Shown here: positions 122 to 49,631 of the stretch, piece after piece
How the letters are laid out: every line of letters starts with the position of its first letter
How positions within the stretch are numbered: the first letter of the stretch is position 1
Sequence record: OM313460
DNA from: Escherichia phage vB_EcoM_IntR
Direction: 5' to 3' (one strand)
DNA: 52,782 bases
The notes under the pieces: model-generated
Database searches by the model: none
What the model saw: only the letters and a program-made list of their open reading frames with translations
Told to the model about the DNA's origin: nothing
Made by a program: the position numbers and the translations under genes

Positions 122-150
122 TTTACACTATAAAAAAGATGTGTTACAAT
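122..150 (+). promoter_or_regulatory. sigma70-type promoter (TTTACA-N17-TACAAT)
   Basis: TTTACA at 122-127, 17-bp spacer, TACAAT at 145-150; upstream of the 205..636 ORF. Confidence 0.5.
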
Positions 151-204
151 ATTTATCAATGTTGCTGATTACCAAATCTTTGGATTATATACGAGGCTGA
201 ATAA

Positions 205-636
205 ATGGTTAATATAAGACAGAAAGGACAGAACTTTGAGCGTAAAATGGCTAAGAAGTTCAATAGCTCGTTCGGATTAACTGTTGAGCGCAATCTTCAA
301 CAGTCTATTAATGGCGTGGCAGACTTGTTGGGTGTGCCGTTTTTCAGCGTTGAACTGAAGAAGCACAAGACCAAGTCTATCGGAACATGGTGGAGACAGT
401 GTGCGGCATCGGCAAAGGCTCAGAACAAGATGCCAGTGCTTATATACGAACTACCAAGAAAACAGCCTACCGTGGTGATGAATAAGGCTGATGTGATTGA
501 CTGTTTTCCAAGTGGCACGACTTTTAACGAGGCATCGAANCGCCTCTTTGTGGGTNTAGTAGAATTAACATGGGAACAATTTTGCCGGGTCTACAACTAT
601 TACGTTGCGCCCGGCACTCAATATCACGTCAATTAA
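205..636 (+). CDS. PD-(D/E)XK-type nuclease-like protein (possible resolvase/endonuclease)
   Basis: ATG with GAGG Shine-Dalgarno upstream; motif GVAD...SVELKKHK resembles the D...ExK nuclease core; two N-containing codons (X) in the ORF. Confidence 0.45.
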   Translation: MVNIRQKGQNFERKMAKKFNSSFGLTVERNLQQSINGVADLLGVPFFSVELKKHKTKSIGTWWRQCAASAKAQNKMPVLIYELPRKQPTVVMNKADVIDCFPSGTTFNEASXRLFVGXVELTWEQFCRVYNYYVAPGTQYHVN

Positions 637-818
637 TCTTGTTTCAGCTCGTCACAAATGACATGCTGATTTTTGGCAGGGATAATACCAAGATTNAGNA
701 NGGTGTATGGACTATCNGCGACACATTGTTCAACGGTAGTCCATTCAGGTTTGGATTCAACAATTTTGTAACTACAATCATGAGTAGCCACACATGTTGC
801 CAGGATTAAGCCAATCAT
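633..818 (-). CDS. hypothetical protein (contains ambiguous bases)
   Basis: 61-aa ORF, AAGGTGA RBS upstream of ATG; sequence has Ns at 696-717. Confidence 0.3.
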   Translation of the reverse strand: MIGLILATCVATHDCSYKIVESKPEWTTVEQCVXDSPYTXXNLGIIPAKNQHVICDELKQD

Positions 819-994
819 AAGTAATCACCTTCAACCAGGAACTCAAACANNTGGTTGTAAACGTTGCAACCTTTAGCGAAAGAGCTTTCAGCAGGTTTAC
901 CATCGCGGACGATCATCATATACTCACCGCCATGGATGTCCACCCAGTATTGCATGCCACCTTTGACCGGATTACGTTGTAAGAATTTAAACAT
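815..994 (-). CDS. hypothetical small protein (59 aa, not in ORF track)
   Basis: ATG at 992-994 overlapping stop of upstream gene (TAATG), AGGAG RBS; my manual translation MFKFLQRNPVKGG...; contains NN at 850-851. Confidence 0.3.
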   Translation of the reverse strand: MFKFLQRNPVKGGMQYWVDIHGGEYMMIVRDGKPAESSFAKGCNVYNXXFEFLVEGDYL

Positions 995-1239
995 TATTTG
1001 CTCCTGATTCCAAGTTTATTCAATAGCCACACTGTCATGTCAACCCAGGTTAACGGTACAGTTTTCGGGGGTTGATAATCCCAGCAGCTTGCAGTTCTTT
1101 GTATTTCTGCTTGGCGCCGCTCCGCTTCGCGTAATACCGCATCGTCAGAAGTGCCGGCAGAAAAAAGATCGGTAACACCAGATAAATCGCGTTGATTAAC
1201 ACGTCGAGCAATGTCATATAAATCTTCCTTAGAAAGCAT
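994..1239 (-). CDS. hypothetical early protein
   Basis: 81-aa ORF in leftward gene array; weak RBS. Confidence 0.4.
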   Translation of the reverse strand: MLSKEDLYDIARRVNQRDLSGVTDLFSAGTSDDAVLREAERRQAEIQRTASCWDYQPPKTVPLTWVDMTVWLLNKLGIRSK

Positions 1240-1466
1240 AAGTTAATACCATAATAATTACCAGAAAAACCGCTACCAGTTTACTCATGTACCGGCCTTC
1301 AGCATATGCAGGATTCACAACAGAATACTCAACAACATGTTTACGGCGGACCATAAGGCCTCCACTTGTGGGTTAATTCAATCATGAGGACTTTTGGCAA
1401 ATCCTCAGGATTGAATTAATTACCAGCTTTTAATCAAGCCCTGTCAGCGCCAGGACTTGACTAATA

Positions 1467-1667
1467 TCACTCAATCATTATCTGTACTACTATTATACAC
1501 TCTTTATTGAAGCGGGTAAACACCTTTCCTCCATTTGTGCGTTTAGCCCCAGATTTTAGAGCTGACTGGCACCAGACATTCCATTCCTCAACTGTCAAGA
1601 ATTTTTGCTCAGCTTTGGGTGGTAGTCCATTGGCAAGGTCTACCGTAGTAAATTTGACTAGTGGCAT
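1467..1667 (-). CDS. hypothetical early protein
   Basis: ATG at 1665-1667 overlaps stop of upstream gene (ATGA coupling). Confidence 0.45.
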   Translation of the reverse strand: MPLVKFTTVDLANGLPPKAEQKFLTVEEWNVWCQSALKSGAKRTNGGKVFTRFNKECIIVVQIMIE

Positions 1668-2056
1668 CACTTGACCTCAAATTTTGACTCGTCATATTCC
1701 GGATCAGTCACGTCCCGGGTAGCACAATTTTTGATTGCCTCCCAGTAACGTTGGGCATCATCGCCATCGACATAAACTGTCCAGTGGCCGTAACCACCTT
1801 CAAATCTGTCCCAGGCTTGTTCCCAGACTTTGCCATCTTCCAGCTTGTACCAAGTTGGACGACTGTCAAACTCGCGGATTGGATGGTACCCCAATAAAGG
1901 ATTCATGATGTCAATAATGTCTGCCCTGCCAATCTCCTGGTTTTCCCACAAGATTGTCATGAATTGCTCAAACTTAAAAGCGTTTGGCAGAACTTTGATG
2001 ACTTCACCATCACAATATACGGTATAGGTGCCATCTTCGCATTTTGCACTGTACAT
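1667..2056 (-). CDS. hypothetical early protein
   Basis: 129-aa ORF, ATG preceded by AGGAGAGAG RBS; leader repeated upstream of 2563..2721. Confidence 0.55.
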   Translation of the reverse strand: MYSAKCEDGTYTVYCDGEVIKVLPNAFKFEQFMTILWENQEIGRADIIDIMNPLLGYHPIREFDSRPTWYKLEDGKVWEQAWDRFEGGYGHWTVYVDGDDAQRYWEAIKNCATRDVTDPEYDESKFEVK

Positions 2057-2129
2057 GTTTCTCTCTCCTATTGATTGTGAATAATTTCAATCATGAACTA
2101 TCACAACTTTGGATAGTTCATTGTTGAAA

Positions 2130-2303
2130 CTATACTAACTTTGTTACAATCTGAATTGTCAGCCGGAAGTCTTCCATCAAGTTATCAAACCCTTTGGAAC
2201 CACCAACCGCATCAGCTATTTGATCTTTCACAATTTGGGCATTTGATTCCAGTAATTCAATCAGGTGCGCCAATTCGTCTTCAGTCAATTTCAGGTCTTT
2301 CAT
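2130..2303 (-). CDS. hypothetical small protein
   Basis: Internal ATG at 2301-2303 with GGGTGGA RBS, ATGA overlap with upstream stop; the ORF-track start at 2318 is a TTG. Confidence 0.4.
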   Translation of the reverse strand: MKDLKLTEDELAHLIELLESNAQIVKDQIADAVGGSKGFDNLMEDFRLTIQIVTKLV

Positions 2304-2557
2304 AATGTATCCACCCAAGCCATAACTTTTGCCAGTCTTACAACGTCTTCATGGTCCCGCTCGCCATCAGAAAATTCGCTGGCGATGATACCCATAATTG
2401 ACGCCAGATTCATGTTGATGATGTAGGCGTGTTGGCGCACTTCATCAATTCCTGAATCTATCACCAGTTCCGCAAATTCCTGCGAACCTTCATCCCATTC
2501 AGCCCAATACTGCTCGGCATAAAAGTCCAGTTCTTTTTTCATCTCAATGTCAGTCAT
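2300..2557 (-). CDS. hypothetical acidic early protein
   Basis: 85-aa ORF, GAGGAG RBS upstream of ATG. Confidence 0.5.
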   Translation of the reverse strand: MTDIEMKKELDFYAEQYWAEWDEGSQEFAELVIDSGIDEVRQHAYIINMNLASIMGIIASEFSDGERDHEDVVRLAKVMAWVDTL

Positions 2558-2562
2558 TTTGA

Positions 2563-2721
2563 TTACTCCTCAGAACTTGAAAATTTGTCATCAATGGACT
2601 CAACAATATAATCAAGAGTTGAAGTGTGAGAACTATCAGAAAAAGTGCCCATCTTCTCCAGCTCAATCATCATATCCCGTAAAGCCATTGCCTGGTCTTT
2701 GGTCAGTTTAATTTTAAGCAT
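2563..2721 (-). CDS. hypothetical small protein
   Basis: ATG at 2719-2721 with AGGAGAG RBS in a conserved leader; the longer ORF-track start is a GTG. Confidence 0.35.
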   Translation of the reverse strand: MLKIKLTKDQAMALRDMMIELEKMGTFSDSSHTSTLDYIVESIDDKFSSSEE

Positions 2722-2785
2722 GTTTCTCTCCTGTTGATTGTGAATAACTTTCATTGATGGCACTACTTGAGTGCCATCTCAAAAA

Positions 2786-3355
2786 TTACTCTTCAGTTTC
2801 TTGTGCTTCAGTTTCAGGTTTTTCTTCAGTATCAGTTTTTTCACCAGTTACTGACTTACCCTCAGTCACTTTACCAGATTTTACATCATTCCGGTAGTAT
2901 GACATATATGACTGGATAACTCTTTTGGCTTTGATGTCATCCGCCTCCATTCCACAGGCTTTCATGGCATCAACAAGTGCCAATTTGGAGTCTTCTTTAT
3001 CCATCAGGTTGTAATCTTCGGGCACCACATAGCAGGTATCTTTAGTTGACGGACCAGATGACGATTTGCGAGAGCCACCAGCGGATGCTCGTGTTGTCGC
3101 AACTTTGACCTCTTCAACTTCCAGTTGGTTCAGTTCATCAAACAATGCCTTGACCAACACTTCTTTGGAGTCCTTGACACTTACAGTACTTTCATCATTA
3201 AGGGACTTAATCATCTTAATGATCTGGTTGTTGGCAAAGTACTGAAGACTATCCATCTGCACTACAATAGTCCCAAGACTTTCAGTAGTCAGACCAGATT
3301 TTACAGACTCAACAGAAAAGGCGGAAGTCAGGTAAACATAGTTGATAGTAGTCAT
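2786..3355 (-). CDS. hypothetical acidic protein (Glu/Thr-rich C-terminus)
   Basis: ATG at 3353-3355 with GAGGA RBS (ORF-track start 3424 is TTG); 189 aa. Confidence 0.5.
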   Translation of the reverse strand: MTTINYVYLTSAFSVESVKSGLTTESLGTIVVQMDSLQYFANNQIIKMIKSLNDESTVSVKDSKEVLVKALFDELNQLEVEEVKVATTRASAGGSRKSSSGPSTKDTCYVVPEDYNLMDKEDSKLALVDAMKACGMEADDIKAKRVIQSYMSYYRNDVKSGKVTEGKSVTGEKTDTEEKPETEAQETEE

Positions 3356-3450
3356 TTGATGTATCCTCGTTGATAGAATTTTTGATATGTGCCAATCCTT
3401 GGCAAGTAAGTCCAAACATGACAACTTTTGTCAAGTTGTCATGATTGAAA

Positions 3451-3753
3451 TCACTTCGCGCTTGCGTTTTCAACGGCTTGTACAACTTTCAACAAATGCC
3501 TGAAGTCATCATGATAGATTTCATTAAAGCCATCTGCCGCAAAGTTTTCGCCAATTAAGATCAGTCTTTCGCGGACCAAGTCAATCAATAGTTTATTGTC
3601 AGTTATTTCCGCACCTGTAACAAGTTCAACAAATAATTGCTGTACGTTATCGCAACGGATGTTACTTTCAATACACACTTGGCGCATGTCTTCAACTATT
3701 GACATGATTGTGACTTGCATTTCTACGTCAGAAGTGATGTTATTCAGTTTCAT
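3451..3753 (-). CDS. hypothetical early protein
   Basis: 100-aa ORF, AAAGG RBS; first gene of the leftward early array. Confidence 0.5.
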   Translation of the reverse strand: MKLNNITSDVEMQVTIMSIVEDMRQVCIESNIRCDNVQQLFVELVTGAEITDNKLLIDLVRERLILIGENFAADGFNEIYHDDFRHLLKVVQAVENASAK

Positions 3754-4125
3754 AATAGTTACCTTTGTACTAGTTTCCAGGTGTGACTACTGTTACCAAT
3801 AGTCACTAGTTGAAACTACTACTTGTGTTACTATCAACAAGAAACATGTTACCAAATTGTTAAAGAGCAAAAGGTACCATTGACATCTACCAGATGTACC
3901 TGTTGACTGGTTAAGTACTACCTACCTAATCTAAACCATACCAATATCCTTTAGACCAGTTAGACTGGTCACTCAGTCATCACATTCAATAAATATATAA
4001 TAGTCCAATCCCTCTTGATTGTACACCTTATATTTGTAAGTTTATGCAAGTTTTTAGAAATGATAATCACTTGCGATTGAGAGTGGTTCTCGTATGCTAT
4101 TGATATAGTTTCGCATGTAATTACT

Positions 4126-4205
4126 CAACTCAAAATGGTCGGCAGGGGTTATAATCACATAGGGGTGCCACTTAAAGGAGCCGGCGAAATTATTTATAAA
4201 AATAT
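4126..4205. repeat. direct repeat copy 1 (~80 bp) in control region
   Basis: TCAACTCAAAATGGTCGGCAGGGGTTATAAT...AGGGGTGCC...AAGGAGCCGGCGAAATT + AT-rich tail; matches the copy at 4301-4380. Confidence 0.6.
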
Positions 4206-4300
4206 AATTTCAATCTGAAGTATAGACGCTTTGTGTTATAACGGCCGAAGTAGTTCATACGGTAATTGTATCAATCACAATAGTTACCAGCGTAATCATT

Positions 4301-4380
4301 TCAATCGAAATAGGTGCGGCGGGGGGTAATTTCGCAAGGGTGCTACCCACCAGGAGCCAGCGGAATTTTTTTATTTTTTG
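4301..4380. repeat. direct repeat copy 2 (~80 bp) in control region
   Basis: TCAATCGAAATAGGTGCGGCGGGGGGTAATTT...AGGGTGCTACC...CAGGAGCCAGCGGAATT + T-rich tail; shares blocks with copy 1. Confidence 0.6.
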
Positions 4381-4600
4381 GTATTTTCTCCTTATCAGGA
4401 CCAATCATCATCAGAGTGATACGACAGGAGCTAACCTTTTGCCTAACACAATAATAAGTGAAGCCCCTCTAAAATTTTTTTATATTTTTCGGAAATTGTG
4501 TAGACACTCACTAAAAAGTGGTGTACTTTCTCTCCTCCACGCGCTATCATTAATGTGAATCATCAAACGGCCTCACGGTCTCCTACTTGTGGGTAACATT

Positions 4601-5164
4601 ATGAAAATTGTTCAATTAGAACCATATCCGCCTCAATTGGCTATCGTTTGTAGCGAAAAAGAGCATGAAGAGCTCCAAAAGCTGATGGATTTGCCTGATT
4701 TTGGCAACTGGAATGACCGGGAAACGCGTAATGCGTCTACTTTTACGTTCACTCGCGTTAACTATCCGTACCTGTTAATCGTCGTCGAACTGTACCACCC
4801 GGACGACCTGAAGTACAACACCATTTCCCACGAAGGCATTCACGTAATGTCGTCGCTGATGAACTATGTAGGGCTTAAATACGACCCAGAAAACGATGAA
4901 TGGTACGCATATCAGCACGATTTCATCGTAAATGCCATTTGTAAGGCCCATGATGAGTACCTGGAGCGCAAAAAAGCGCCAAAACATAAGCCAAAAATCG
5001 AAACAGGCAATCATCCTGTGATACAGCCACAAGACGTAATGAACTCGCTTTTGACTGACACTACTGGGGACTTTTTAGATGATAAACCTAATCTTTGCAA
5101 TGGGCCAAAATGGGGAATTCGGGTTGTCCCCGGAGTTTATGAAGCATCAGGTGGACTCGTGTAA
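4601..5164 (+). CDS. hypothetical protein with HExxH motif (possible zinc metallopeptidase-like)
   Basis: ATG at 4601 (ORF-track start 4589 is GTG); motif ISHEGIHVM; 3' end overlaps the next gene by 86 nt. Confidence 0.45.
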   Translation: MKIVQLEPYPPQLAIVCSEKEHEELQKLMDLPDFGNWNDRETRNASTFTFTRVNYPYLLIVVELYHPDDLKYNTISHEGIHVMSSLMNYVGLKYDPENDEWYAYQHDFIVNAICKAHDEYLERKKAPKHKPKIETGNHPVIQPQDVMNSLLTDTTGDFLDDKPNLCNGPKWGIRVVPGVYEASGGLV

Positions 5165-5753
5165 GACTATGGAAGAGGTCCGTGCGCTTCCTAAGTCTGG
5201 TTTACCATGGAAGTGTCCGTCAGATATGCTCTTTTTCAGGACTATGACTAATTCAATTGCGTCAGAACCAGGCTATAATGCGTATCAGCAACTACGGGGA
5301 CAGTTCCCAAGTGACCAGTTGCGAAACATGATAGCTGATGTAACGGTAAAAATGGTTGGGCATAGCGTATTGTTAGCCGGTCGTAAAACGTTTATGACTA
5401 TGAGTCTGCCTATGTCAGCCCACCGAATACTGCTGCCGGTATCTCGTCAGATTATGGCTTCAGAAGGCTACAACAATATAGGTGAGTTGGCAGCAGCACT
5501 TGAGACCAGTGGTTCAGATGTTTGGATTGTTGGCGGTGCACAGTTAATACTTGCGGCTCTTGAAGAGCATGCCAAAGGTACACTCCGTGTTGACAACATG
5601 TTTATCAGCACAATCAAAGAAGCAGGTCCAAGTGATATATTAATGGACCGTAGCAAATTAATGATGTACATTGATAGCGACTTCACTTATAATGATGAAT
5701 ATGTTGATAACAAATCTGTGCTGATACAGCGTTACCGGAGTGTACACAAATGA
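5079..5753 (+). CDS. dihydrofolate reductase
   Basis: N-terminus MINLIFAMGQNGEFG, LPW motif, VLLAGRKTF and VWIVGGAQL blocks match DHFR signatures. Confidence 0.7.
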   Translation: MINLIFAMGQNGEFGLSPEFMKHQVDSCKTMEEVRALPKSGLPWKCPSDMLFFRTMTNSIASEPGYNAYQQLRGQFPSDQLRNMIADVTVKMVGHSVLLAGRKTFMTMSLPMSAHRILLPVSRQIMASEGYNNIGELAAALETSGSDVWIVGGAQLILAALEEHAKGTLRVDNMFISTIKEAGPSDILMDRSKLMMYIDSDFTYNDEYVDNKSVLIQRYRSVHK

Positions 5754-6256
5754 ATATCATAGTTGAGGGACCTGACAATGCTCGTAAATCTACACTTATT
5801 AAGTTCCTTGAACCTCATCTTGGCCGCGCAGTTATTCATAATACTGTTGACAAAGATGCCGAATCGGTCATGGCTAAACAGGCCAAAGAAAACGCGCTCG
5901 AAGGCAATAGTATTTACGACCGTAGCGCTGTTATATCTGAGTATATCTATTGCATGGTTCTTCAACGTACGCCTGTCATCAATATTAATGTATCACATGT
6001 AGCAGATATGTGTGACAACGCCATCGTTATCTTTTGTATGCCGCCTATTGAAAAGGTACTGGCGACTACAAAAGAAGAGATGCCTGGTGTTGTGGAAAAT
6101 CTTGAGGCGTTATACAACCAGTATGACAACCTCATTGACGAACTGGTTATGATGGGCAAGCAGTTCTTTATTTACGACTGGACTGCTGAAGAAAATGGCC
6201 CAGAAGCAGTTCTCGAATACATCAACGAACGTATTAATAAGGAGTGGAACAAATGA
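5750..6256 (+). CDS. thymidylate kinase-like dNMP kinase
   Basis: IIVEGPDNARKST aligns with the TMK P-loop (IVIEGLEGAGKTT) but lacks the glycines; DR motif (IYDRSAVISEY); ATGA-coupled to DHFR. Confidence 0.6.
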   Translation: MNIIVEGPDNARKSTLIKFLEPHLGRAVIHNTVDKDAESVMAKQAKENALEGNSIYDRSAVISEYIYCMVLQRTPVININVSHVADMCDNAIVIFCMPPIEKVLATTKEEMPGVVENLEALYNQYDNLIDELVMMGKQFFIYDWTAEENGPEAVLEYINERINKEWNK

Positions 6257-6972
6257 GCCCAGTATACAATACCTCAGTCACGCTGTCAGCAACCGTAGGG
6301 GACGTCAACAAGACTGTTACTGTGGGTTCAACTAACCCGAACCTGTCAGGCGAAGACCTGCTACGCCTGGCCAAACGTGCTCTTGAAGATAACGAAGTGA
6401 CTGGTACTGAAGGCGTTAACATTGAAATTAACGTCGAAGGGTATCCACACAGCATCAGTATTGCTACCTCTTCATTGCCGGATGATGAAACTCGTGAACA
6501 GCTGGAAACCAAAAAGTTCAACGACGAGCTGGAATATCGTACCGGTGAGATGTTCAGCAGTGCGCTAAACTGGTACTTGTGCAAGGCTTCAAACTACGCT
6601 GGCGCTCCTATGTCAGACCGTATGTTAGCTGATATGTCTGCACGTGAAATTGCTAAAGGCTGGGCGCATGTACAGATGCTGCAGGAGCATATCTGCAAGC
6701 TGGAAAGCTGCAATAAAGACGCGTCTGAGCTTATTACTGCCTATAAGCGACAGATTAACGACCTGCAGCAACTGATGGGCAAACGCGCTGAAGAATATGA
6801 GGCTGAGATTCGTAGTCTTAACGGTACGGCTGTTGCTAACAACCGTGCTTTCAGCGAAGAGCGTAAAGCGCTTATTGCCCAGCGCGACGCTGAAAAACGT
6901 CGTGCAGACGACCTAGCAAACCGTCTTAATTTTATCCGTAAACACATGGATGCTATGGAAGGGGTAATCTGA
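6253..6972 (+). CDS. hypothetical protein (C-terminal coiled coil)
   Basis: ATG at 6253 with AGGAG RBS (ORF-track start 6244 is GTG); ATGA-coupled to upstream gene. Confidence 0.5.
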   Translation: MSPVYNTSVTLSATVGDVNKTVTVGSTNPNLSGEDLLRLAKRALEDNEVTGTEGVNIEINVEGYPHSISIATSSLPDDETREQLETKKFNDELEYRTGEMFSSALNWYLCKASNYAGAPMSDRMLADMSAREIAKGWAHVQMLQEHICKLESCNKDASELITAYKRQINDLQQLMGKRAEEYEAEIRSLNGTAVANNRAFSEERKALIAQRDAEKRRADDLANRLNFIRKHMDAMEGVI

Positions 6973-7262
6973 TGGACTTGTTCGATATGGTCGAACATCC
7001 TGAAGTAAACGGCTTGGCGGAAGCTAAGCCATTTAACTGGGATGAATTCGTAGCAGGCAAACCTGCTGTAACCCACAATGGGCAGATTGCATATTACGGA
7101 GGCCATAGCGAACATCCGATGTGCACTCACCTGTACAACGCTATCACAACCATAGCCGACGAAAACGTTATTAAATACGGAAAAGATGTAATGCCTTTTC
7201 TTGTAGATGAGCGCGGTTACTTCGAAGGTAAATGGTTCCCGTTTCTGGTAGAAATGGCCTAA
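6972..7262 (+). CDS. hypothetical protein
   Basis: 96-aa ORF, start overlaps upstream stop. Confidence 0.45.
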   Translation: MDLFDMVEHPEVNGLAEAKPFNWDEFVAGKPAVTHNGQIAYYGGHSEHPMCTHLYNAITTIADENVIKYGKDVMPFLVDERGYFEGKWFPFLVEMA

Positions 7263-7378: not shown

Positions 7379-7407
7379 TTTACTTACTTCGCGTAACTCG
7401 TTATAAT
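7379..7407 (+). promoter_or_regulatory. sigma70-type promoter (TTTACT-N17-TATAAT)
   Basis: TTTACT 7379-7384, 17-bp spacer, TATAAT 7402-7407; upstream of the terminase genes. Confidence 0.55.
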
Positions 7408-7439: not shown

Positions 7440-7730
7440 ATGGCAAAACCGAAAAAAACCCGTGAGGCAACAGAAGAACTGTTGGCCACGATGCGACGTA
7501 TCCAGCTGGACCCGTTGGAAGTTATGCAACGGGCTATCATACTTGCTGAACGTGAAGACGACTACAAAGCAATGATGGATGGTGCACTGGGCGTTATGCC
7601 GTACATGTATCCTAAGCTGAAAGAATCCGTTGTCAAAGCAGACATCGACCAGAACCTGTCTGGTAATGGTGTCAACCTGAACATTACAATAGGCGACCAG
7701 AAAGTGGTAGATACTACTGGGGAAGAGTAA
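7440..7730 (+). CDS. putative terminase small subunit
   Basis: 96-aa ORF immediately upstream of the large terminase, GAGGA RBS; assignment by position only. Confidence 0.4.
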   Translation: MAKPKKTREATEELLATMRRIQLDPLEVMQRAIILAEREDDYKAMMDGALGVMPYMYPKLKESVVKADIDQNLSGNGVNLNITIGDQKVVDTTGEE

Positions 7731-9122: not shown

Positions 9123-9183
9123 ATGGTGTTGCGTGGCATCAACCGTTATACTACCAAGCTCAAAATAAATATGGGACGGTAAA

Positions 9184-10751: not shown

Positions 10752-10780
10752 TTTACTTTCGGTTTACCTGGCTATATAAT
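10752..10780 (+). promoter_or_regulatory. sigma70-type promoter (TTTACT-N17-TATAAT)
   Basis: TTTACT 10752-10757, TATAAT 10775-10780. Confidence 0.55.
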
Positions 10781-12618: not shown

Positions 12619-12640
12619 CCCACAAACGGGACTAACAAAA

Positions 12641-12670
12641 GGCGAGCTGACGAGCTCGCCTTTTTTATTT
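12641..12670 (+). terminator. rho-independent terminator
   Basis: GGCGAGC...GCTCGCC stem followed by TTTTTTATTT. Confidence 0.75.
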
Positions 12671-18125: not shown

Positions 18126-18154
18126 TTTACTTAACCGAGGCGCCAGCCTATAAT
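18126..18154 (+). promoter_or_regulatory. sigma70-type promoter with -10 inside an inverted repeat
   Basis: TTTACT 18126-18131, TATAAT 18149-18154; GCGCCAGC..GCTGGCGC inverted repeat spans the -10. Confidence 0.5.
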
Positions 18155-18186
18155 AAGCTGGCGCACCCAATAAGAGGATTCTCCAG

Positions 18187-20991: not shown

Positions 20992-21020
20992 TTTACTTGG
21001 TTAAACTTACTGAGTATAAT
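20992..21020 (+). promoter_or_regulatory. sigma70-type promoter (TTTACT-N17-TATAAT)
   Basis: TTTACT 20992-20997, TATAAT 21015-21020. Confidence 0.55.
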
Positions 21021-32352: not shown

Positions 32353-32394
32353 GCTACCAGCAAGCTTGTGCAGTTGCTGGTAGCGTTTCTTTTA
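32353..32394 (+). terminator. rho-independent terminator
   Basis: GCTACCAGCAA...TTGCTGGTAGC inverted repeat followed by GTTTCTTTT. Confidence 0.6.
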
Positions 32395-33537: not shown

Positions 33538-33739
33538 TAAGCCTGAAGTTGTTTATGTTGACAGGGTAGTCAAGGTTTATCCGCCTGGTGCGTACCTGGT
33601 TAAATGCCATAAACCTGAATTAACAGGTAATACCTGGAAGGCAATAGGTCAGTTAGCTATTGAACGTGGAACAGCTCTTGATGATTGTGCAGACAAGATG
33701 GACAGCATAATTAACTGGAGTAACAAAGGGGCCGAGTGA
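33464..33739 (+). CDS. o-spanin (Rz1-like lipoprotein), overlapping the i-spanin gene
   Basis: ATG at 33464 with AAGAAGGG RBS; signal peptide LILLLLLPFMNSC; out of frame with the i-spanin 3' end. Confidence 0.5.
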   Translation: MTKRQNMIRALILLLLLPFMNSCADKPEVVYVDRVVKVYPPGAYLVKCHKPELTGNTWKAIGQLAIERGTALDDCADKMDSIINWSNKGAE

Positions 33740-33753
33740 TGGCCCCTTTATTT
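33728..33753. terminator. bidirectional rho-independent terminator between convergent blocks
   Basis: GGGGCC-GAGTGAT-GGCCCC hairpin flanked by A-run upstream and TTTATTT downstream. Confidence 0.65.
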
Positions 33754-33755: not shown

Positions 33756-34034
33756 TTAAGCCTGCAGGAAGCCTGGGAACATATCAGCGCGTAAAGCAGC
33801 GCCCTTCAGTAACCAGATTTGGTCTTTAGCCTGTGCAAGCGCATTGTCCTGAGCTACTTGTTTGCCGATGTCTGCATTGAACTCTGCAGGGTCAACACAA
33901 CCAGAAGTACCTACACCTAACTGGAAGCCATCCAGCGTTGCCACACATACAGTTACAGTTGTATTCGGTACCTGCCAGAAATGATACTCCAGTTTATCAA
34001 CAAGAGCATTAACTTCTTTAAAATCTACTTTCAT
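33756..34034 (-). CDS. hypothetical protein
   Basis: 92-aa ORF, AAGGAAAG RBS, start overlaps upstream stop. Confidence 0.5.
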   Translation of the reverse strand: MKVDFKEVNALVDKLEYHFWQVPNTTVTVCVATLDGFQLGVGTSGCVDPAEFNADIGKQVAQDNALAQAKDQIWLLKGAALRADMFPGFLQA

Positions 34035-34258
34035 TATCGCTTTCCTTTCTTCTCGTTATACTGCGCGCAGGATGCACACAATACTGTACCGGGTAAGAGC
34101 TGACGTCGTTTTTCTTCAATGTCTTCCCCACACTGGTAGCACGTCAGCGGGCTTACTCCTGTGTATCTTACTCGGTTCGATAGCGCTGCGTCCCGGGCAA
34201 CTTGTTCAGCTTCAGAAGCCATATCATTAATGTCCGATGTGCGCGTAGTCTCAATCAT
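34034..34258 (-). CDS. DksA/TraR-type C4 zinc-finger protein
   Basis: CYQCGEDI...CASCAQ (CxxC-N17-CxxC), 74 aa; GAGGGA RBS. Confidence 0.55.
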   Translation of the reverse strand: MIETTRTSDINDMASEAEQVARDAALSNRVRYTGVSPLTCYQCGEDIEEKRRQLLPGTVLCASCAQYNEKKGKR

Positions 34259-39430: not shown

Positions 39431-39459
39431 ATTATACCACATCACTCTCTAGTGGTAAA
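39431..39459 (-). promoter_or_regulatory. sigma70-type promoter on the minus strand (TTTACC-N17-TATAAT)
   Basis: Reverse complement of 39431-39459 reads TTTACC-17 nt-TATAAT. Confidence 0.55.
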
Positions 39460-39474
39460 GCACTTTTTATGCTT

Positions 39475-39509: not shown

Positions 39510-39741
39510 TTATGGCAGGGTGGCGTAAGGAGATACAAGGAATCGCAGTTATGCAACCAGGCAGCGCATATGAGATTGGCTTAAGGACTGACCGACTTAA
39601 TCCCCGCGACGAGTCGAAAGGAGGTACCATCAAGTAGCCAATCACATATGCGTTACTTGCTGTGTGCTCTTACCACAGAAAGTATATAGCGTTACACTTA
39701 TCACACAGTTGTAGTGGCAAAAGCACACAGCAAGTACAACC

Positions 39742-39828
39742 TTAGTTGTGGTGTCTTAGCACCTGAGTTATTGTGGATAACCTGCACCCGACGGGTGTCA
39801 AAAAGATACGCCAAAACACCACAACTAA
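39742..39828. repeat. 13-bp perfect inverted repeat pair flanking a DnaA-box-like 9-mer
   Basis: TTAGTTGTGGTGT at 39742-39754 and ACACCACAACTAA at 39816-39828; TGTGGATAA (reverse complement TTATCCACA) at 39772-39780; palindrome CACCCGACGGGTG at 39785-39797. Confidence 0.5.
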
Positions 39829-40079
39829 AATTGTGACCGCCGTCTACACCAGGCGCCTGGGGTCAAGGTAGCGAGCCAATACCCTTTTCAGCGTCGGAGG
39901 AATCGAACCTCACACATCACGGCTTTTACCAAATCTCGGTCAGCGAGCAGAATTGAACTGCATTCACTGGACACCCTCACTGTTTCAACACACCAGGCTT
40001 AATTGATTGTTGATAAGAAGAGAGATGTAAGGATGTCCATTGAATGCACCTCCGTAGAGGTGCGTTCAGATCAGCGCTA

Positions 40080-40547: not shown

Positions 40548-40653
40548 AATTTTTTCCTCGTCTACAGGGCTTAATGTTTGTTCGTTACGTGAGTTAATAT
40601 ACGTCATTTAAAAGAGAGTGTAAACACCTTTTTTAAACTTTTTTCATTAGTGT

Positions 40654-42532: not shown

Positions 42533-42590
42533 TTAACGTCTCCTCATTAACTTCATATATTATACCACTTCCTTGTGGTGATGTATACTT

Positions 42591-44527: not shown

Positions 44528-44634
44528 TGTTTGGTATCCTGTTTAAGTTTAATTTAATTTCGTTTAACGCTTTACCGGCAGCGTTCGGCCGTGATGCTTA
44601 TTATACGCCACTTTTTATCATGGCGTAAACACTT

Positions 44635-45519
44635 TTATTCGCCGGATTCTTTTTCAGCTTGAGCAGCTTTCTTCGCCATCCAGGCTAGGTGCTTCTCTTT
44701 CGATTCGTCTGAACCGATTTTAGTGAGTTGCACATTCGGGTCGTCGTTCTGCATTTGTTCTGCAGCTCGACCAGTCAGAAGCAGGTAGCTGTCTGACTCC
44801 GGGTGGTAATACCACAGCTGGTAAGGATGATAGCCTTGTAGCTTATCATAAATCCAACCCAGATCTGCAGGTTCACGTGCATCCAGTTCACGCCCTGGTG
44901 CGTTACGGCACTTAGCTTCCCATTGATAGTCAGGTTGTGTCTGAATATAACGTTCGCTGTTACCGTTGGCATCTGGTGCAGTCATACGCAAAGCAAGTAC
45001 CGCATCCATAAGATACGGCAACTGTTTAGGTAACTGCTGTCCTGGCATAAGAGGTGAGTACAGCATTGCACCAGTAACCTCGTCCTTGTTCTTCTCAAGC
45101 TTGCACAGGTATGCAACGCTGAAAGGCAAGTCACGGAACTGACGCATGATATACATCATCTTGTCGTTGGTATTACCATAAGCCTGTCGTTTGTCGTTGA
45201 CCTGCGACTTCTCATAGTCCAGACAAACTTCAGCAACATCCGATAGTGAGTCGAAAATCAGATGCTCGTACTTCTGCGCATCCTTACTTTCGGTAAGCCA
45301 TTTGTACAGCGCCAGAATGTCATTGAACGTATTGATTGGCGTAGAGTCGATGTCAGCATCTGCAATCGACATCAATCCACCTTCAGCGTTAATGACCAGA
45401 ACCTTGTCATGAGGCAAGGTCTTAGCCAGGCTGGTTTTACCAACACCTGATGCGCCGTAAATAGCGACCTTAGGTCGCTTATTTTCTACGGCTTGTTTAG
45501 TAGATACAATCTGAACCAT
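44635..45519 (-). CDS. AAA/RecA-like ATPase (Sak4-like recombination ATPase)
   Basis: Walker A GASGVGKTSLA, Walker B HLIFDSL; GAGGA RBS. Confidence 0.7.
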   Translation of the reverse strand: MVQIVSTKQAVENKRPKVAIYGASGVGKTSLAKTLPHDKVLVINAEGGLMSIADADIDSTPINTFNDILALYKWLTESKDAQKYEHLIFDSLSDVAEVCLDYEKSQVNDKRQAYGNTNDKMMYIMRQFRDLPFSVAYLCKLEKNKDEVTGAMLYSPLMPGQQLPKQLPYLMDAVLALRMTAPDANGNSERYIQTQPDYQWEAKCRNAPGRELDAREPADLGWIYDKLQGYHPYQLWYYHPESDSYLLLTGRAAEQMQNDDPNVQLTKIGSDESKEKHLAWMAKKAAQAEKESGE

Positions 45520-45749: not shown

Positions 45750-45809
45750 ATTCTCTCTCCTCATGTGTATAGAGGTATTATACACCACTTACATGGGGTA
45801 AGTACACTA

Positions 45810-47210: not shown

Positions 47211-47324
47211 TTCTTGTTTCCTTGTATACCAGTTTGATTGTATGCCAGAGACATTCCCTGCGCATGTGCTTTATTGCTTAACCGTTAAAGACATTATATC
47301 ATTAGTGAGTGGTGACGTACACAT

Positions 47325-48295: not shown

Positions 48296-48314
48296 GTAAG
48301 TCTCCAAAAGTCAA

Positions 48315-48333
48315 GGGGCTTGTGCTAAGCCCC
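48315..48333 (-). promoter_or_regulatory. intergenic hairpin
   Basis: GGGGCT-TGTGCTA-AGCCCC between the 48340..48789 and 47993..48295 genes. Confidence 0.4.
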
Positions 48334-48339
48334 GTCTAA

Positions 48340-48789
48340 TTACTCGGCTTCTTCCGTAGCTGCCGGGGTGAATGTTACAGTCGGAATACCAGGCGAGGTC
48401 TTCACAACAGGGTCGACGATAGCCAGTTGTTCTGGTGTCAGGTTACGGTATGCAGTAACTGACATTTCATACTTGGTTTTAAACAGCTTGGCAACAACAG
48501 TCTTCGGTAACTTCTTCATTACGTCAGGCACAAGCTTCTGGTCTAGCGAGCGGTTAACCTTCTGCTCAACCTTGAGTTTACCAGGTACGCCATGCATGCT
48601 GAACTCAACCGTTAGTGTACCTTCTTTACCACGATTGATAATCATGTCGCGTTCAAGACGTGCTTTAATGGTCCGGCGCAATGTCTCCTGGTTAGCTTTC
48701 GCCTGTGCCATCCAGCGGTTCAGATTCGCCAGCTTGTCGTACAGCTGTTCCGTGTCCATCGATTCCAGTTCTTGTGGGTTCAGTGCCAT
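48340..48789 (-). CDS. hypothetical protein
   Basis: ATG at 48787-48789 with GAGGAAA RBS (ORF-track start 48828 is upstream). Confidence 0.45.
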   Translation of the reverse strand: MALNPQELESMDTEQLYDKLANLNRWMAQAKANQETLRRTIKARLERDMIINRGKEGTLTVEFSMHGVPGKLKVEQKVNRSLDQKLVPDVMKKLPKTVVAKLFKTKYEMSVTAYRNLTPEQLAIVDPVVKTSPGIPTVTFTPAATEEAE

Positions 48790-49060
48790 CAGTTGTTTCC
48801 TCAGGTTGCATGTGCATAGTTGCACCAATTAGTAGACAATAGTTATTGAACATTGTACGTAGTGCCTGGCCCGCAACAATATCCGTTATGTCTATTATAC
48901 CACTTTTAGTGGTGACGCGTAAAGCTTTTTCTTTCTTTGTTTTTTCCACGAATGCAATGCTGATGATTTCTTCCGCATGTATTACGTGGATAGTACCTGC
49001 AAACTCACCAGTCTTAGCTGGTGCCTGGTACACTAACGACATAGACGGTTGGTTACTCAT
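48692..49060 (-). CDS. hypothetical protein (3' end overlaps the next gene by ~98 nt)
   Basis: 122-aa ORF, weak RBS; the long overlap makes the true stop uncertain. Confidence 0.3.
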   Translation of the reverse strand: MSNQPSMSLVYQAPAKTGEFAGTIHVIHAEEIISIAFVEKTKKEKALRVTTKSGIIDITDIVAGQALRTMFNNYCLLIGATMHMQPEETTDGTEPTRTGIDGHGTAVRQAGESEPLDGTGES

Positions 49061-49070
49061 TTAATTACTC

Positions 49071-49508
49071 TTATTTATATAAGTCCATCCAGTTACGATA
49101 CTCGTCATAGAACCGGTCAAACTCGGTTTTGGTGAGTGCGATAGCAACACCATTTACCAGATGCATGGTTCGTGTTTTGATGTTGACATACATGACGTTG
49201 CTGTACGGGAACAAGCTACCGTCATTGTCAGTGAAGTAAGTCGGTGTGATATGAAGCGCATCGCGCAATGCAACCAGCGCTTCAACAGCTTCTGCATGAC
49301 CTTCGCGGCGGAACGTCATGCAAGGCGGTGCACCGTCTTCGTCCTGGGTACCGCGCAAAGTAAGGTATACAATTTCAGCAGTATCATTGTGTACAATTAC
49401 GCTGATGTCAACGATGTCGCTGGTACGGAAGGTAACAAAGTGCTCTTCAATTACTTGTTCGTCGGTATTAGGACTGACGCCCTGAAAGGTCTTGAGTGTG
49501 TGAAACAT
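49071..49508 (-). CDS. hypothetical protein (first gene of the leftward block)
   Basis: ATG at 49506-49508 with GGAGA RBS (ORF-track start 49592 is upstream). Confidence 0.45.
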   Translation of the reverse strand: MFHTLKTFQGVSPNTDEQVIEEHFVTFRTSDIVDISVIVHNDTAEIVYLTLRGTQDEDGAPPCMTFRREGHAEAVEALVALRDALHITPTYFTDNDGSLFPYSNVMYVNIKTRTMHLVNGVAIALTKTEFDRFYDEYRNWMDLYK

Positions 49509-49539
49509 TGGTTGTATCTCCTTAACAGAATGTAAGTCT

Positions 49540-49568
49540 ATTATGTATATAAAGGAGGGGAAAGTAAA
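49540..49568 (-). promoter_or_regulatory. sigma70-type promoter on the minus strand (TTTACT-N17-CATAAT)
   Basis: Reverse complement of 49540-49568 reads TTTACT-17 nt-CATAAT; divergent from the + promoter at 49602-49631. Confidence 0.5.
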
Positions 49569-49601
49569 TAGATATAAATGTATAAAATACATAAAAGTCT
49601 A

Positions 49602-49631
49602 TTTACTCTGGTTTAATAACGTGTATATAAT
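49602..49631 (+). promoter_or_regulatory. sigma70-type promoter (TTTACT-N18-TATAAT)
   Basis: TTTACT 49602-49607, TATAAT 49626-49631. Confidence 0.5.

What the first reader, a model, noticed from the sequence alone, without database searches (positions are those of the whole stretch)
122..49631. Shared host-type promoter ATTTACT-N17-TATAAT used across early, structural and replication blocks
At least nine intergenic sites (122, 7379, 10752, 12668, 18126, 20992, 39431 minus, 49540 minus, 49602) share TTTAC(T/A/C)-17/18 bp-TATAAT, usually preceded by A. No phage RNA polymerase or sigma factor is recognisable in the window, so late structural genes appear to be transcribed by host sigma70 from a phage-specific -35 variant. 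Several -10 elements lie inside inverted repeats (18141-18160), hinting at regulated access.
Basis: seen in the sequence. Interest (0 to 1): 0.4.

Follow-up and report, generated by a model that had tools for sequence, protein, structure and literature searches.

The report
Host sigma-70 promoters of a Rosemountvirus
About twenty conserved promoter sites of the ordinary E. coli sigma-70 type (T[T/G]TAC, 17-18 bp, TATAAT) sit in front of every gene block of this BP63-like phage; the feature is real but ordinary, and it is already annotated or predicted in close relatives.

Summary
TTTACN-N16-18-TATAAT occurs 10 times against 0.16 expected. A slightly relaxed model gives 19 sites against 0.9 expected, and 14 of them lie in the 8% of the genome that is non-coding. 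I count 20 family members. The hexamers stay at orthologous positions in three other lineages (Loughboroughvirus ZCSE2, Salmonella phage vB_SE1_KM, Erwinia phage SOI901): -10 is 94% and -35 is 91% conserved, while spacers and flanks are 56-63%. No phage RNA polymerase or sigma factor is detectable, and a published "late sigma factor" label in ZCSE2 is a Sak4/AAA_24 ATPase.

The interpretation needs three corrections. First, the -35 variant is not phage-specific: T4 promoters use TTTAC in the same way, and TTGAC-N-TATAAT is absent from both. Second, there are two flavours. T4-early-like promoters (A-tract, TGn, A/T-rich discriminator) drive non-structural operons. Plain A-TTTAC(T/A)-17-TATAAT promoters with a G+C-rich discriminator occur only in the structural/lysis block. 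Third, the window does encode an RNAP-binding factor, a TraR-type protein at 34034-34258.

Homologous sites are already annotated as promoters in BP63 RefSeq, and the same inference was published for phage S144. The finding is real and ordinary, and no TSS data exist.

The parts
122..150 (+). Promoter P122: TTTACA-17-TACAAT (TGt extended -10), upstream of the RusA-like gene 205-636
   Evidence: Conserved in ZCSE2 and SOI901. Annotated as a promoter in BP63 RefSeq.
1492..1520 (-). Promoter P1520: TTTACC-17-TATAAT, inside the 3' end of ORF 1467-1667, upstream of small genes 1229-1354 and beyond
   Evidence: Conserved only within the genus (swi3, BP63).
3997..4025 (-). Promoter P4025: TGTACA-17-TATTAT, the leftward member of a divergent pair in the 847-nt gap; candidate promoter of the small-gene (early) operon 3753->633
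   Evidence: The TTGATTGTACA block is invariant in ZCSE2 and SOI901.
4522..4550 (+). Promoter P4522: TGTACT-17-TATCAT, with AAAAAGTGG and a T-rich tract upstream; drives the operon 4601-7262
   Evidence: TAAAAAGTGGTGTACTTT and GCTATCATTA are invariant in three lineages.
5665..5693 (+). Internal promoter P5665: TGTACA-17-TATAAT, within the DHFR-like gene, 57 nt before the thymidylate kinase gene
   Evidence: An exact match is kept in BP63, ZCSE2 and AEV23.
7379..7407 (+). Structural-class promoter P7379: TTTACT-17-TATAAT-CC, upstream of 7440-7730 and the large terminase gene
10752..10780 (+). Structural-class promoter P10752: A-TTTACT-17-TATAAT-CC, upstream of the scaffold and major capsid genes
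12637..12664 (+). Intrinsic terminator after the major capsid gene; its T-run abuts the -35 of P12668
12668..12696 (+). Structural-class promoter P12668: A-TTTACA-17-TATAAT-CG, upstream of the head-tail adaptor gene
   Evidence: Annotated in BP63.
18126..18154 (+). Structural-class promoter P18126: A-TTTACT-17-TATAAT, upstream of the Ig-domain structural protein gene
   Evidence: Annotated in BP63.
18140..18164 (.). 8-bp inverted repeat GCGCCAGC/GCTGGCGC with the -10 of P18126 in its 9-nt loop
   Evidence: 0 of 200 shuffles. The same repeat occurs in ZCSE2. SOI901 keeps the pairing with a different stem, AGCCAG/CTGGCT.
20992..21020 (+). Structural-class promoter P20992: TGGCCA-TTTACT-17-TATAAT-GGCC, upstream of the tail sheath gene
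   Evidence: The flanks TGGCCA and GGCC are invariant in four lineages.
32353..32384 (+). Hairpin plus T-run (terminator-like) after the tail fibre assembly genes, abutting P32386
32386..32414 (+). Structural/lysis-class promoter P32386: TTTCTT-17-(TGc)TATAAT-CC, an extended -10 type upstream of the holin gene
33725..33749 (.). Terminator between the convergent lysis and replication blocks
   Evidence: Annotated as a bidirectional terminator in BP63.
34034..34258 (-). TraR/DksA-family gene (74 aa) with DINDMA (the DxxDxA motif) and CxxC-N17-CxxC; predicted to bind the RNAP secondary channel
   Evidence: PHROG 54 at 1.8e-18, PF01258 at 3.5e-10, TIGR02419 at 4.2e-14, PDB TraR 6n57_M at 3.4e-7, sequence.
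39431..39459 (-). Replication-class promoter P39459: AAAAAGTGC-TTTACC-17-(TGg)TATAAT-AA, just after terminator 39488-39511
   Evidence: Annotated in BP63.
40596..40624 (-). Replication-class promoter P40624: AAAAAAGGTG-TTTACA-17-TATATT
   Evidence: Annotated in BP63.
42559..42587 (-). Replication-class promoter P42587: TATACA-17-(TGg)TATAAT. Its spacer tcaccacaaggaagtgg is nearly identical to T4 early-promoter spacers.
   Evidence: Annotated in BP63.
44600..44629 (-). Replication-class promoter P44629: AATAAAAGTG-TTTACG-18-TATAAT, with palindrome TACGCCA/TGGCGTA; upstream of the SSB gene
   Evidence: Annotated in BP63.
45777..45806 (-). Replication-class promoter P45806: TGTACT-18-TATAAT
47293..47321 (-). 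Replication-class promoter P47321: TGTACG-17-(TGa)TATAAT
48894..48923 (-). Replication-class promoter P48923: A-rich tract, TTTACG-18-(TGg)TATAAT, inside ORF 48692-49060
49540..49568 (-). Promoter P49568: A-TTTACT-17-CATAAT, the leftward member of the divergent pair; first promoter of the replication block
49602..49631 (+). Promoter P49602: A-TTTACT-18-TATAAT, the rightward member of the divergent pair; drives 49662-49994 and the primase gene

Best explanation
The motif marks a family of about 20 genuine promoters for the host's sigma-70 RNA polymerase holoenzyme. Their form is a -35 element T[T/G]TAC, a 17- or 18-bp spacer and a -10 element TATAAT, placed so that transcription would start about 20-25 nt (occasionally 50-180 nt) before a start codon. 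The phage, a BP63-like Rosemountvirus, has no RNA polymerase or sigma factor of its own, so host holoenzyme transcribes every module.

Two flavours exist. Non-structural operons (the replication block, both left-arm operons and the primase operon) use strong T4-early-type promoters: an A-rich tract at about -37 to -49 resembling a proximal UP element, often G before the -35, often TGn before the -10, and an A/T-rich discriminator. The structural and lysis block uses six plainer promoters, A-TTTAC(T/A)-17-TATAAT, with no A-tract and a G+C-rich discriminator. They are placed after terminators or directly before the genes for the most abundant virion proteins.

A TraR-type protein, encoded near the distal end of the replication operon, probably binds the RNAP secondary channel. 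By analogy with lambda Orf73, it would shift polymerase away from host rRNA-type promoters.

Shown: motif enrichment, geometry, conservation, the two flavours, the absence of a sigma or RNAP homolog, and the TraR hallmarks. Inferred: actual start sites, promoter strength, timing, and any effect of the TraR-like protein.
For: Enrichment and specificity.

Location and orientation: 14 of 19 top sites lie in 8% non-coding DNA, and 13 of them are co-oriented with a gene 27-144 nt downstream.

Phylogenetic footprint without motif picking: -10 is 94% and the -35 core 91% identical to the window, against spacer 56% and flanks 57-63%, across ZCSE2, vB_SE1_KM and SOI901. This holds even where the adjacent proteins are only 27-60% identical.

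Within species: 2 of 240 hexamer positions differ from swi3, against 4.1% genome-wide.

Census over 60 site-by-genome cases: TTTAC 39, TGTAC 17, TTGAC 0; spacer 17 bp in 45 cases and 18 bp in 15.

Class differences: discriminator G+C is 0.70 vs 0.31 (p=0.0018) and upstream A content differs at p=0.005, window only. Across four genomes, the first base after the -10 is C14/G5/A2 in the structural class and A19/G7/T6/C0 in the replication class.

No RNAP or sigma.

T4 parallel; Hinton 2010 (PMC2988021).

TraR hallmarks; criteria from PMC9239242.

Prior annotation and prediction: BP63 RefSeq; phage S144 (PMC7432712).
Against: No transcription start site, RNA-seq or in vitro transcription data exist for this phage group; none of the 21 papers naming the genus is such a study. 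About 35 ORFs have no known function, so an unrecognisable activator, anti-sigma or sigma-appropriation factor cannot be excluded. A 110-aa protein (49662-49994) models as a winged-helix-like fold. If all blocks use constitutive sigma-70 promoters, early/late timing is unexplained. By the known rule for DksA/ppGpp/TraR, G+C-rich discriminators mark inhibited promoters, which fits awkwardly with high late expression of structural genes. Three sites (1520, 5665, 48923) lie inside ORFs, where conservation is confounded by coding constraint.
Confidence: 0.82

Rival explanations
1. The structural-block sites need an unrecognised phage-encoded factor (an activator, a sigma-appropriating pair, an antiterminator or a cryptic sigma). 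The sigma-70-like hexamers would then be only part of the late signal, or not the main late promoters.
For: The structural class is systematically and conservedly different (A before the -35, no A-tract, no TGn, G+C-rich discriminator, conserved flanks such as TGGCCA...GGCC at 20992). Many ORFs are of unknown function. A winged-helix-like 110-aa protein is encoded as the first gene after P49602. The temporal programme is otherwise unexplained.
Against: All six sites have a consensus -10 and optimal 17-bp spacing; five have a near-consensus -35, and P32386 has a weaker TTTCTT with a TGn extended -10. Activator-dependent late promoters such as P2 Ogr, Mu C or T4 gp55 sites typically lack these features (established knowledge). 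No sequence element beyond the hexamers is shared by all six. No sigma or RNAP homolog was found. The positional candidate gp6253-6972 models as a coiled coil with no fold match. The winged-helix fold hits are all non-significant (best E=0.07).
Confidence: 0.13
2. Kinetic switch: the two flavours are two kinetic classes of sigma-70 promoter, and the TraR-like protein sets which class wins. Timing would then be achieved with no sigma factor, activator or repressor.
For: The classes differ in the discriminator, which from established knowledge is a determinant of the DksA/ppGpp/TraR response, and this difference is conserved. The TraR-like protein has the DxxDxA motif and the C4 finger. Its gene and its position at the distal end of the replication operon are conserved in KM, ZCSE2 and AEV23. 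The S144 authors proposed that the DksA-like protein controls late genes.
Against: The direction is wrong for the simple version. G+C-rich discriminators go with inhibition by TraR/DksA, yet the structural genes must be highly expressed. Lambda Orf73 had almost no direct effect on lambda pR, pR' and pL and acts mainly by inhibiting host promoters (PMC9239242). Promoters with a consensus -10 and a 17-bp spacer usually form stable complexes that are insensitive to these factors (established knowledge).
Confidence: 0.12
3. The motif is not a promoter set but repeated DNA with another role (packaging, replication or recombination sites, or a mobile cassette), or it is a chance or compositional artefact.
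For: TATAAT alone is not enriched. Intergenic DNA is A+T-rich. One T4 spacer is nearly identical to that of P42587, which could suggest a transferred cassette.
Against: The combined motif is 60-fold or more over dinucleotide-preserving shuffles. The sites show strict co-orientation with genes and a constant distance to start codons. Conservation is confined to the two hexamers while the spacers drift. This is the signature of RNAP contacts, not of a repeat.
Confidence: 0.02

Closest known systems
Bacteriophage T4 early promoters (the 'uber' UP/-35/TGn/-10 sigma-70 promoters; Hinton 2010, PMC2988021)
   Same: The -35 is TTTAC, usually preceded by G, and never TTGAC when paired with TATAAT: 9 vs 0 in T4 1-100 kb and 10 vs 0 in the window. 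Both have A/T-rich upstream tracts and TGn. The spacer element CCACAAGGA(T/A)GTGG at window P42587 matches T4 sites at 2457 and 50972 in 14-15 of 17 positions (16 of 17 for swi3's version against the 2457 site). Both are read by host E-sigma70 without a phage sigma.
   Different: T4 uses these promoters only for early genes, then switches to MotA/AsiA middle promoters and gp55 late promoters. The window has no homolog of gp55, ModA/B, RpbA, Srd, Srh, Mrh or MotB (AsiA, MotA, Alt and gp33 were not compared). Here a second, plainer sigma-70 flavour serves the structural genes. The TGTAC variant (3-4 per genome in this clade) was not seen in T4.
Promoters annotated in Salmonella phage BP63 RefSeq (NC_031250) and predicted in phage S144 (PMC7432712)
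   Same: These are the same genus (BP63, ~96% identical) and the sister genus (S144). BP63 carries 'promoter, similar to TTGACA(N15-18)TATAAT with 2bp mismatch' features at the homologs of window sites 122, 12668, 18126, 39459, 40624, 42587 and 44629. The S144 paper states that there is no phage RNAP, that 18 host-type promoters lie in all clusters, and that a DksA-like protein is a possible late regulator.
   Different: Those are predictions only. BP63 does not annotate the homologs of 7379, 10752, 20992, 32386, 45806, 47321, 48923, 49568/49602 or 4025/4522. Neither source reports the TTTAC/TGTAC rule, the two flavours, cross-genus conservation or the T4 parallel.
Canonical E. coli sigma-70 -35/-10 promoters (TTGACA-17-TATAAT); lacUV5 is TTTACA-18-TATAAT (from memory)
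   Same: The -10 hexamer, the spacing and 5 of 6 positions in the -35. Position 3 G->T is the commonest natural deviation.
   Different: G at position 3 of the -35, present in roughly three quarters of E. coli promoters (compilations, from memory), is absent from all 60 site-by-genome cases here.
F-plasmid TraR and phage lambda Orf73 (RNAP secondary-channel regulators; PMC9239242, PMC6970531)
   Same: The protein is 74 aa long. It has an N-terminal DxxDxA motif (DINDMA) and a CxxC-N17-CxxC zinc finger. It aligns to TraR over residues 25-73. Like P2 Orf82, it is encoded in an early/replication operon.
   Different: It has a 6-residue longer N-terminus before the DxxDxA motif. Its score is just below the NCBIfam TraR-family cut-off (52.9 vs 59.7 bits). 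Binding to RNAP and any effect on phage promoters are untested.

Membership tests
Sigma-70-dependent -35/-10 promoter | -10 hexamer close to TATAAT, with A at position 2 and T at position 6 | tested here: met
   14 of 20 sites are exact TATAAT. The others are TACAAT, CATAAT, TATATT, TATTAT and TATCAT. 94% conserved across lineages.
Sigma-70-dependent -35/-10 promoter | -35 hexamer close to TTGACA, 16-18 bp upstream of the -10 | tested here: met
   T[T/G]TAC in 18 of 20 sites; TATACA and TTTCTT once each. The spacer is 17 bp (16 sites) or 18 bp (4 sites). Position 3 is always T rather than G.
Sigma-70-dependent -35/-10 promoter | Upstream of, and co-oriented with, transcription units | tested here: met
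   All 20 sites point to a same-strand gene. The distance from the -10 to the ATG is 26-34 nt at 10 sites.
Sigma-70-dependent -35/-10 promoter | Transcription start 5-9 nt downstream of the -10; open complex formation by E-sigma70 | not testable with these tools
   No TSS or RNA-seq data were found for the genus.
T4-early-type 'uber' promoter (UP/-35/TGn/-10) | A/T-rich UP-like tract upstream of the -35 | tested here: met
   Replication class: A fraction 0.53 at about -37 to -49, against 0.22 in the structural class. Not met by the structural class.
T4-early-type 'uber' promoter (UP/-35/TGn/-10) | TGn extended -10 | tested here: inconclusive
   TG at -15/-14 is present in 4 of 9 window replication-class sites, and in 9 of 32 across genomes.
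T4-early-type 'uber' promoter (UP/-35/TGn/-10) | -35 is (G)TTTAC; additional consensus within the spacer | tested here: met
   8 of 8 T4 sites are gTTTAC. The T4 spacer ttaccacaaggatgtgg compares with window P42587 tcaccacaaggaagtgg. G precedes the -35 in 21 of 32 replication-class cases.
T4-early-type 'uber' promoter (UP/-35/TGn/-10) | Stimulation by ADP-ribosylation of RNAP alpha (Alt/ModA) | tested here: not met
   No ModA/ModB homolog in the window (best tblastn E=0.14). T4 Alt itself was not compared.
Phage-encoded sigma factor or RNA polymerase | Sequence similarity to sigma-70 family regions, to T4 gp55, or to single- or multi-subunit RNAPs | tested here: not met
   About 40 non-structural proteins were scanned against PHROGs and 30 against Pfam, with no match. 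10 were scanned against NCBIfam. T4 gp55 tblastn gave a best E of 7.2. The ZCSE2 'sigma factor for late transcription' ortholog (44635-45519) is AAA_24 at 2.8e-28 and Sak4-like at 3e-51.
TraR/DksA secondary-channel regulators (gene 34034-34258) | DxxDxA motif in the N-terminal helix | tested here: met
   D9-I-N-D12-M-A14. The criterion comes from PMC9239242.
TraR/DksA secondary-channel regulators (gene 34034-34258) | C4 zinc finger CxxC-N17-CxxC, and a length of about 73 aa | tested here: met
   C40, C43, C61 and C64; 74 aa. PF01258 at 3.5e-10. PDB TraR at E=3.4e-7.
TraR/DksA secondary-channel regulators (gene 34034-34258) | Binds RNAP and alters initiation kinetics | not testable with these tools
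   Requires biochemistry.

The most novel reading that the evidence does not exclude
The phage times its structural genes with nothing but host E-sigma70. It would encode two kinetic classes of sigma-70 promoter: a T4-early-like class with an A/T-rich discriminator, and a minimal -35/-10 class with a G+C-rich discriminator. A TraR-type secondary-channel protein, made from the replication operon, would shift polymerase between them and away from host rRNA promoters. The conserved palindromes linking the -35 and the -10 would be part of that kinetic tuning.
Probability: 0.1. Interest if true: 0.55.

Novelty: already known. Interest (0 to 1): 0.2.

Why it matters
It gives a clean, conservation-backed transcription map for a phage group (Rosemountvirus/Loughboroughvirus) that is widely proposed for Salmonella and E. 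coli biocontrol. It also corrects a published 'late sigma factor' annotation. It shows that the T4-early promoter architecture, including TTTAC in place of TTGAC and even a spacer element, recurs in an unrelated myophage. Finally, it offers a compact system for testing how a phage with no sigma factor or RNAP of its own orders gene expression: two promoter flavours plus a TraR-type factor. None of this changes current understanding, because sigma-70-type promoters in a phage without its own polymerase are expected.

Tried and rejected
(1) The generic TTGACA/TATAAT scanner does not discriminate (43 vs 34, 34 vs 29, 24 vs 23 expected). Only the specific T[T/G]TAC form is enriched.

(2) Motif-guided ortholog picking is partly circular, so I replaced it with motif-blind MAFFT alignments and genome-wide shuffles.

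(3) I rejected the 'sigma factor for late transcription' label given to the ZCSE2 ortholog of 44635-45519. It is an AAA_24/Sak4-like P-loop ATPase. The ZCSE2 paper's table also assigns T4 replication names to tail genes.

(4) T4 gp55, RpbA, Srd, Srh, Mrh, MotB, ModA, ModB, gp45 and GoF were compared with the window and no homolog was found.

(5) gp6253-6972 was tested as a late regulator because of its position. The AlphaFold model is a small N-terminal domain plus a ~160-residue coiled coil, with no PDB fold match (best E=0.32).

(6) gp49662-49994 gives a confident model (pLDDT 87) whose top fold hits are all winged-helix proteins (MukE, MarR, Fur, PadR, BlaI). None is significant (best E=0.07), so this is a lead, not a finding. 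The 15-bp palindrome between the divergent promoters (49578-49592) is not conserved as a palindrome in KM or SOI901.

(7) The idea that inverted repeats are class-wide operators has weak support. Only about 17% of site-by-genome cases beat shuffles at p<=0.05, and the CCAC...GTGG spacer palindrome is shared with T4.

(8) tRNA and Rfam searches of the two large gaps found nothing.

(9) The Miller et al. T4 genome review, wanted for a citable early-promoter consensus, is not held, so I counted sites directly in the T4 genome instead.

Full report
**What the window is.** The 52,782-bp window is a complete or nearly complete genome of a BP63-like myophage (genus Rosemountvirus). It is colinear with Escherichia phage vB_EcoM_swi3 (MT768059.1), with the same length and no indels over the 50 kb compared but 4.1% substitutions. 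It is 96-99.9% identical to some 40 Salmonella and Escherichia phages. The layout, from the swi3 and BP63 annotations, is as follows:
- a leftward cluster of small genes (633-3753, minus strand);
- an 847-nt non-coding gap;
- a rightward nucleotide-metabolism operon (4601-7262);
- the packaging, structural and lysis block (7440-33739, plus strand);
- a convergent replication block (49508-33756, minus strand);
- a primase operon (49662-52503, plus strand).

**The observation.** The exact pattern TTTACN-N16-18-TATAAT occurs 10 times, against 0.16 expected from dinucleotide-preserving shuffles.
Site 122 has TACAAT as its -10, and 49540-49568(-) has CATAAT.
- A simple scored model (five -35 positions plus six -10 positions, spacer 16-18 bp) finds 19 sites at score >=10.5, against 0.87+-0.76 in shuffles. 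Fourteen of them lie in the 8.0% of the genome that is non-coding, and 13 of those point at a gene start 27-144 nt away.
- TATAAT alone is not enriched (43 against ~41.5). The generic TTGACA/TATAAT scanner is not enriched either. The signal therefore belongs to this particular form.
- Adding conserved weaker members brings the family to 20. These include a divergent pair in the 3754-4600 gap (4025 minus, 4522 plus) and an internal site at 5665 that is kept in BP63, ZCSE2 and AEV23. All 20 are listed.

**Are they functional?** I compared the window with three divergent lineages: Loughboroughvirus ZCSE2 (~84% identity in conserved genes), Salmonella phage vB_SE1_KM and Erwinia phage SOI901 (~77%).
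- At almost every site the two hexamers sit at the same distance from the orthologous start codon while the spacer changes. This holds even where the neighbouring protein is only 27-60% identical.
- That comparison picks the best motif match and is partly circular. I therefore aligned the upstream regions with MAFFT, without reference to the motif. Identity to the window is 94% in the -10, 91% in the five-base -35 core, 40% at the sixth -35 position, 56% in the spacer and 57-63% in the flanks.
- Within the species, only 2 of 240 hexamer positions differ between the window and swi3, against 4.1% overall.
- This is the footprint expected of RNA polymerase contacts. No experimental start-site or transcriptome data exist for the group.

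**No phage polymerase or sigma.**
- About 40 non-structural proteins were scanned against PHROGs, 30 against Pfam and 10 against NCBIfam. None gave a hit to an RNA polymerase or sigma factor.
- T4 gp55 and nine other T4 transcription proteins have no homolog in the window.
- The ZCSE2 record and paper call the ortholog of 44635-45519 a sigma factor for late transcription. Three libraries identify it as a Sak4-like AAA_24 ATPase, so I reject that label.
- The two positional candidates I modelled gave no regulator. gp6253-6972 is a coiled-coil protein with no fold match. gp49662-49994 has a winged-helix-like model, but all its fold matches are non-significant.

Gene 34034-34258 (minus strand) encodes a 74-aa TraR/DksA-family protein.
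- It has the DxxDxA motif (DINDMA, residues 9-14) and a CxxC-N17-CxxC zinc finger. Its best specific match among solved structures is TraR.
- These are the features that Gopalkrishnan et al. (PMC9239242) use to define functional TraR homologs. Such proteins bind the RNAP secondary channel and inhibit rRNA-type promoters.
- Lambda Orf73 raises burst size three- to four-fold, mainly by inhibiting host promoters, with little direct effect on lambda pL, pR and pR'.

**The -35 variant is not phage-specific.**
- TTGAC-N16-18-TATAAT is absent from the window and from every genome I fetched.
- TTTAC occurs 8-10 times per genome in this clade, and TGTAC 3-4 times.
- T4 behaves the same way. In its first 100 kb there are 9 TTTAC sites and no TTGAC site. 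The eight sites with a 17-bp spacer are all preceded by G and all lie on the transcribed strand.
- Two T4 sites, at 2457 and 50972, have the spacer tt(a/g)ccacaaggatgtgg. Window P42587 has tcaccacaaggaagtgg.
- Hinton's review describes T4 early promoters as UP/-35/TGn/-10 promoters with extra regions of consensus (PMC2988021). The window's non-structural promoters fit that description.

**Two flavours.**
- The nine replication-block sites have an A-rich tract at about -37 to -49, mostly G before the -35, TGn in four of nine, and an A/T-rich discriminator.
- The six structural/lysis-block sites mostly have A before the -35, no A-tract, no TGn (except the holin promoter) and a G+C-rich discriminator.
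- In the window alone, discriminator G+C is 0.70 against 0.31 (Mann-Whitney p=0.0018), and upstream A content differs at p=0.005.
- Across four genomes, the first base after the -10 is C14/G5/A2 in the structural class and A19/G7/T6/C0 in the replication class.
- The three extra left-arm sites (4025, 4522, 5665) look like the replication class.
- Structural-class promoters sit directly after terminators (12637-12664, 32353-32384) or before the scaffold/capsid, Ig-protein, sheath and holin genes.

**Inverted repeats.**
- At 18126, the -10 lies in the loop of an 8-bp repeat (18140-18164; 0 of 200 shuffles). ZCSE2 has the same repeat, and SOI901 keeps the pairing with a different stem.
- In several replication-class promoters, a palindrome runs from the TAC of the -35 to the G-TA at the -10. 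The stem changes between genomes but stays paired. At P42587 it is ACCAC/GTGGT, then TATCAC/GTGATA, then CGCGC/GCGCG. P44629 and P45806 behave similarly.
- Only about one case in six beats shuffles on its own, and T4 shares the CCAC...GTGG element.
- I therefore regard these repeats as unexplained features of this promoter architecture. They are not evidence for a phage-specific operator.

**Mechanism.**
- Shown: a conserved, correctly placed family of sigma-70-type promoters in every block; two conserved flavours; no phage sigma factor or RNAP; and a TraR-type factor.
- Inferred: host E-sigma70 transcribes the whole genome. The T4-early-like promoters capture polymerase at once. The plainer structural promoters restart transcription after terminators and boost the most abundant virion genes. 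The TraR-like protein frees polymerase by inhibiting host rRNA-type promoters.
- How early/late order is set is unknown. A direct TraR-based switch is possible but runs against the usual rule that G+C-rich discriminators mark inhibited promoters.

**Novelty.**
- BP63's RefSeq record already annotates seven of the homologous sites as promoters.
- The S144 paper already states that the phage lacks an RNAP, has host-type promoters in all clusters, and may use its DksA-like protein for later genes.
- New here, all computational, are the full 20-site map, the cross-genus footprint, the T[T/G]TAC rule and its T4 parallel, the two flavours, the TraR hallmarks and the correction of the sigma-factor label.
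- The finding itself is real, ordinary and already known in substance.

Noticed in passing
window 9120-9122 (within the large terminase ORF 7734-9182): The window has TAG where swi3 has TAC. The large terminase would therefore be truncated by 20 C-terminal residues relative to swi3 and BP63. This is either a real nonsense change or a sequencing error.
   Followed up: partly
whole window vs MT768059.1: The window has the same length as swi3 (52,782 bp) and aligns without any indel over the 50 kb compared, yet differs at 4.1% of positions. It is closer (99.6-99.9%) to vB_EcoM_PiR. This is odd for independent isolates and may reflect a reference-guided assembly.
   Followed up: partly
window 3754-4600: The 847-nt non-coding gap between the divergent left-arm operons contains blocks conserved in ZCSE2 and SOI901, besides the two promoters. 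One block of ~80 nt has GCAAGT/ACTTGC repeats (4036-4115). Three are G+C-rich modules each followed by a T-run (about 4135-4215, 4305-4385 and 4462-4495). These could be small RNAs, terminators or an origin. Rfam finds nothing.
   Followed up: partly
window 39405-40079 (minus strand): This is a 675-nt non-coding stretch. Erwinia phage SOI901 carries tRNA-Gln and tRNA-Pro at the homologous place. The window has no detectable tRNA (ARAGORN, Rfam), but it has a T-arm-like GGTTCGATTCC and a near-perfect ~85-nt hairpin at 39652-39739.
   Followed up: partly
window 1366-1388, 2062-2087, 2725-2750, 3406-3422 (genes on the minus strand): The small left-arm genes are separated by a hairpin followed by a conserved ~26-nt element (reverse complement of TCTCTCCT[A/G]TTGATTGTGAATAA) that ends at the ribosome-binding site. 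The arrangement is reminiscent of RNA-processing sites between early genes.
   Followed up: no
window 42559-42587 vs T4 (L013 2429-2457; L014 944-972): The promoter spacers are nearly identical between this phage and T4 (tcaccacaaggaagtgg vs ttaccacaaggatgtgg). The match is far beyond chance by my rough estimate, which suggests a shared functional constraint or transfer of promoter cassettes.
   Followed up: partly
L007/L012 (ZCSE2) 32881-33771 in the record; window 44635-45519: The GenBank and paper annotation 'sigma factor for late transcription' in ZCSE2 is unsupported. The protein is a Sak4-like AAA_24 ATPase. The same table gives T4 replication names to tail genes.
   Followed up: yes
window 49662-49994: This 110-aa protein is the first gene after P49602 and overlaps the primase start. 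It gives a confident AlphaFold model (pLDDT 87, pTM 0.79) whose top PDB fold hits are all winged-helix proteins, though none is significant (best E=0.07). It may be a DNA-binding protein.
   Followed up: partly
window 994-1239 and the left end: The paper on Rosemountvirus fHy-Eco03 reports a 3.6-kb terminal repeat that is missing from BP63-type records, and an 81-aa toxic protein, Gp05. The window's 994-1239 product is also 81 aa, but I did not test orthology.
   Followed up: no
window 20986-21026 and orthologs: P20992 is bracketed by invariant TGGCCA (before the -35) and GGCC (after the -10) in all four lineages. These form a short inverted repeat around the whole promoter.
   Followed up: no
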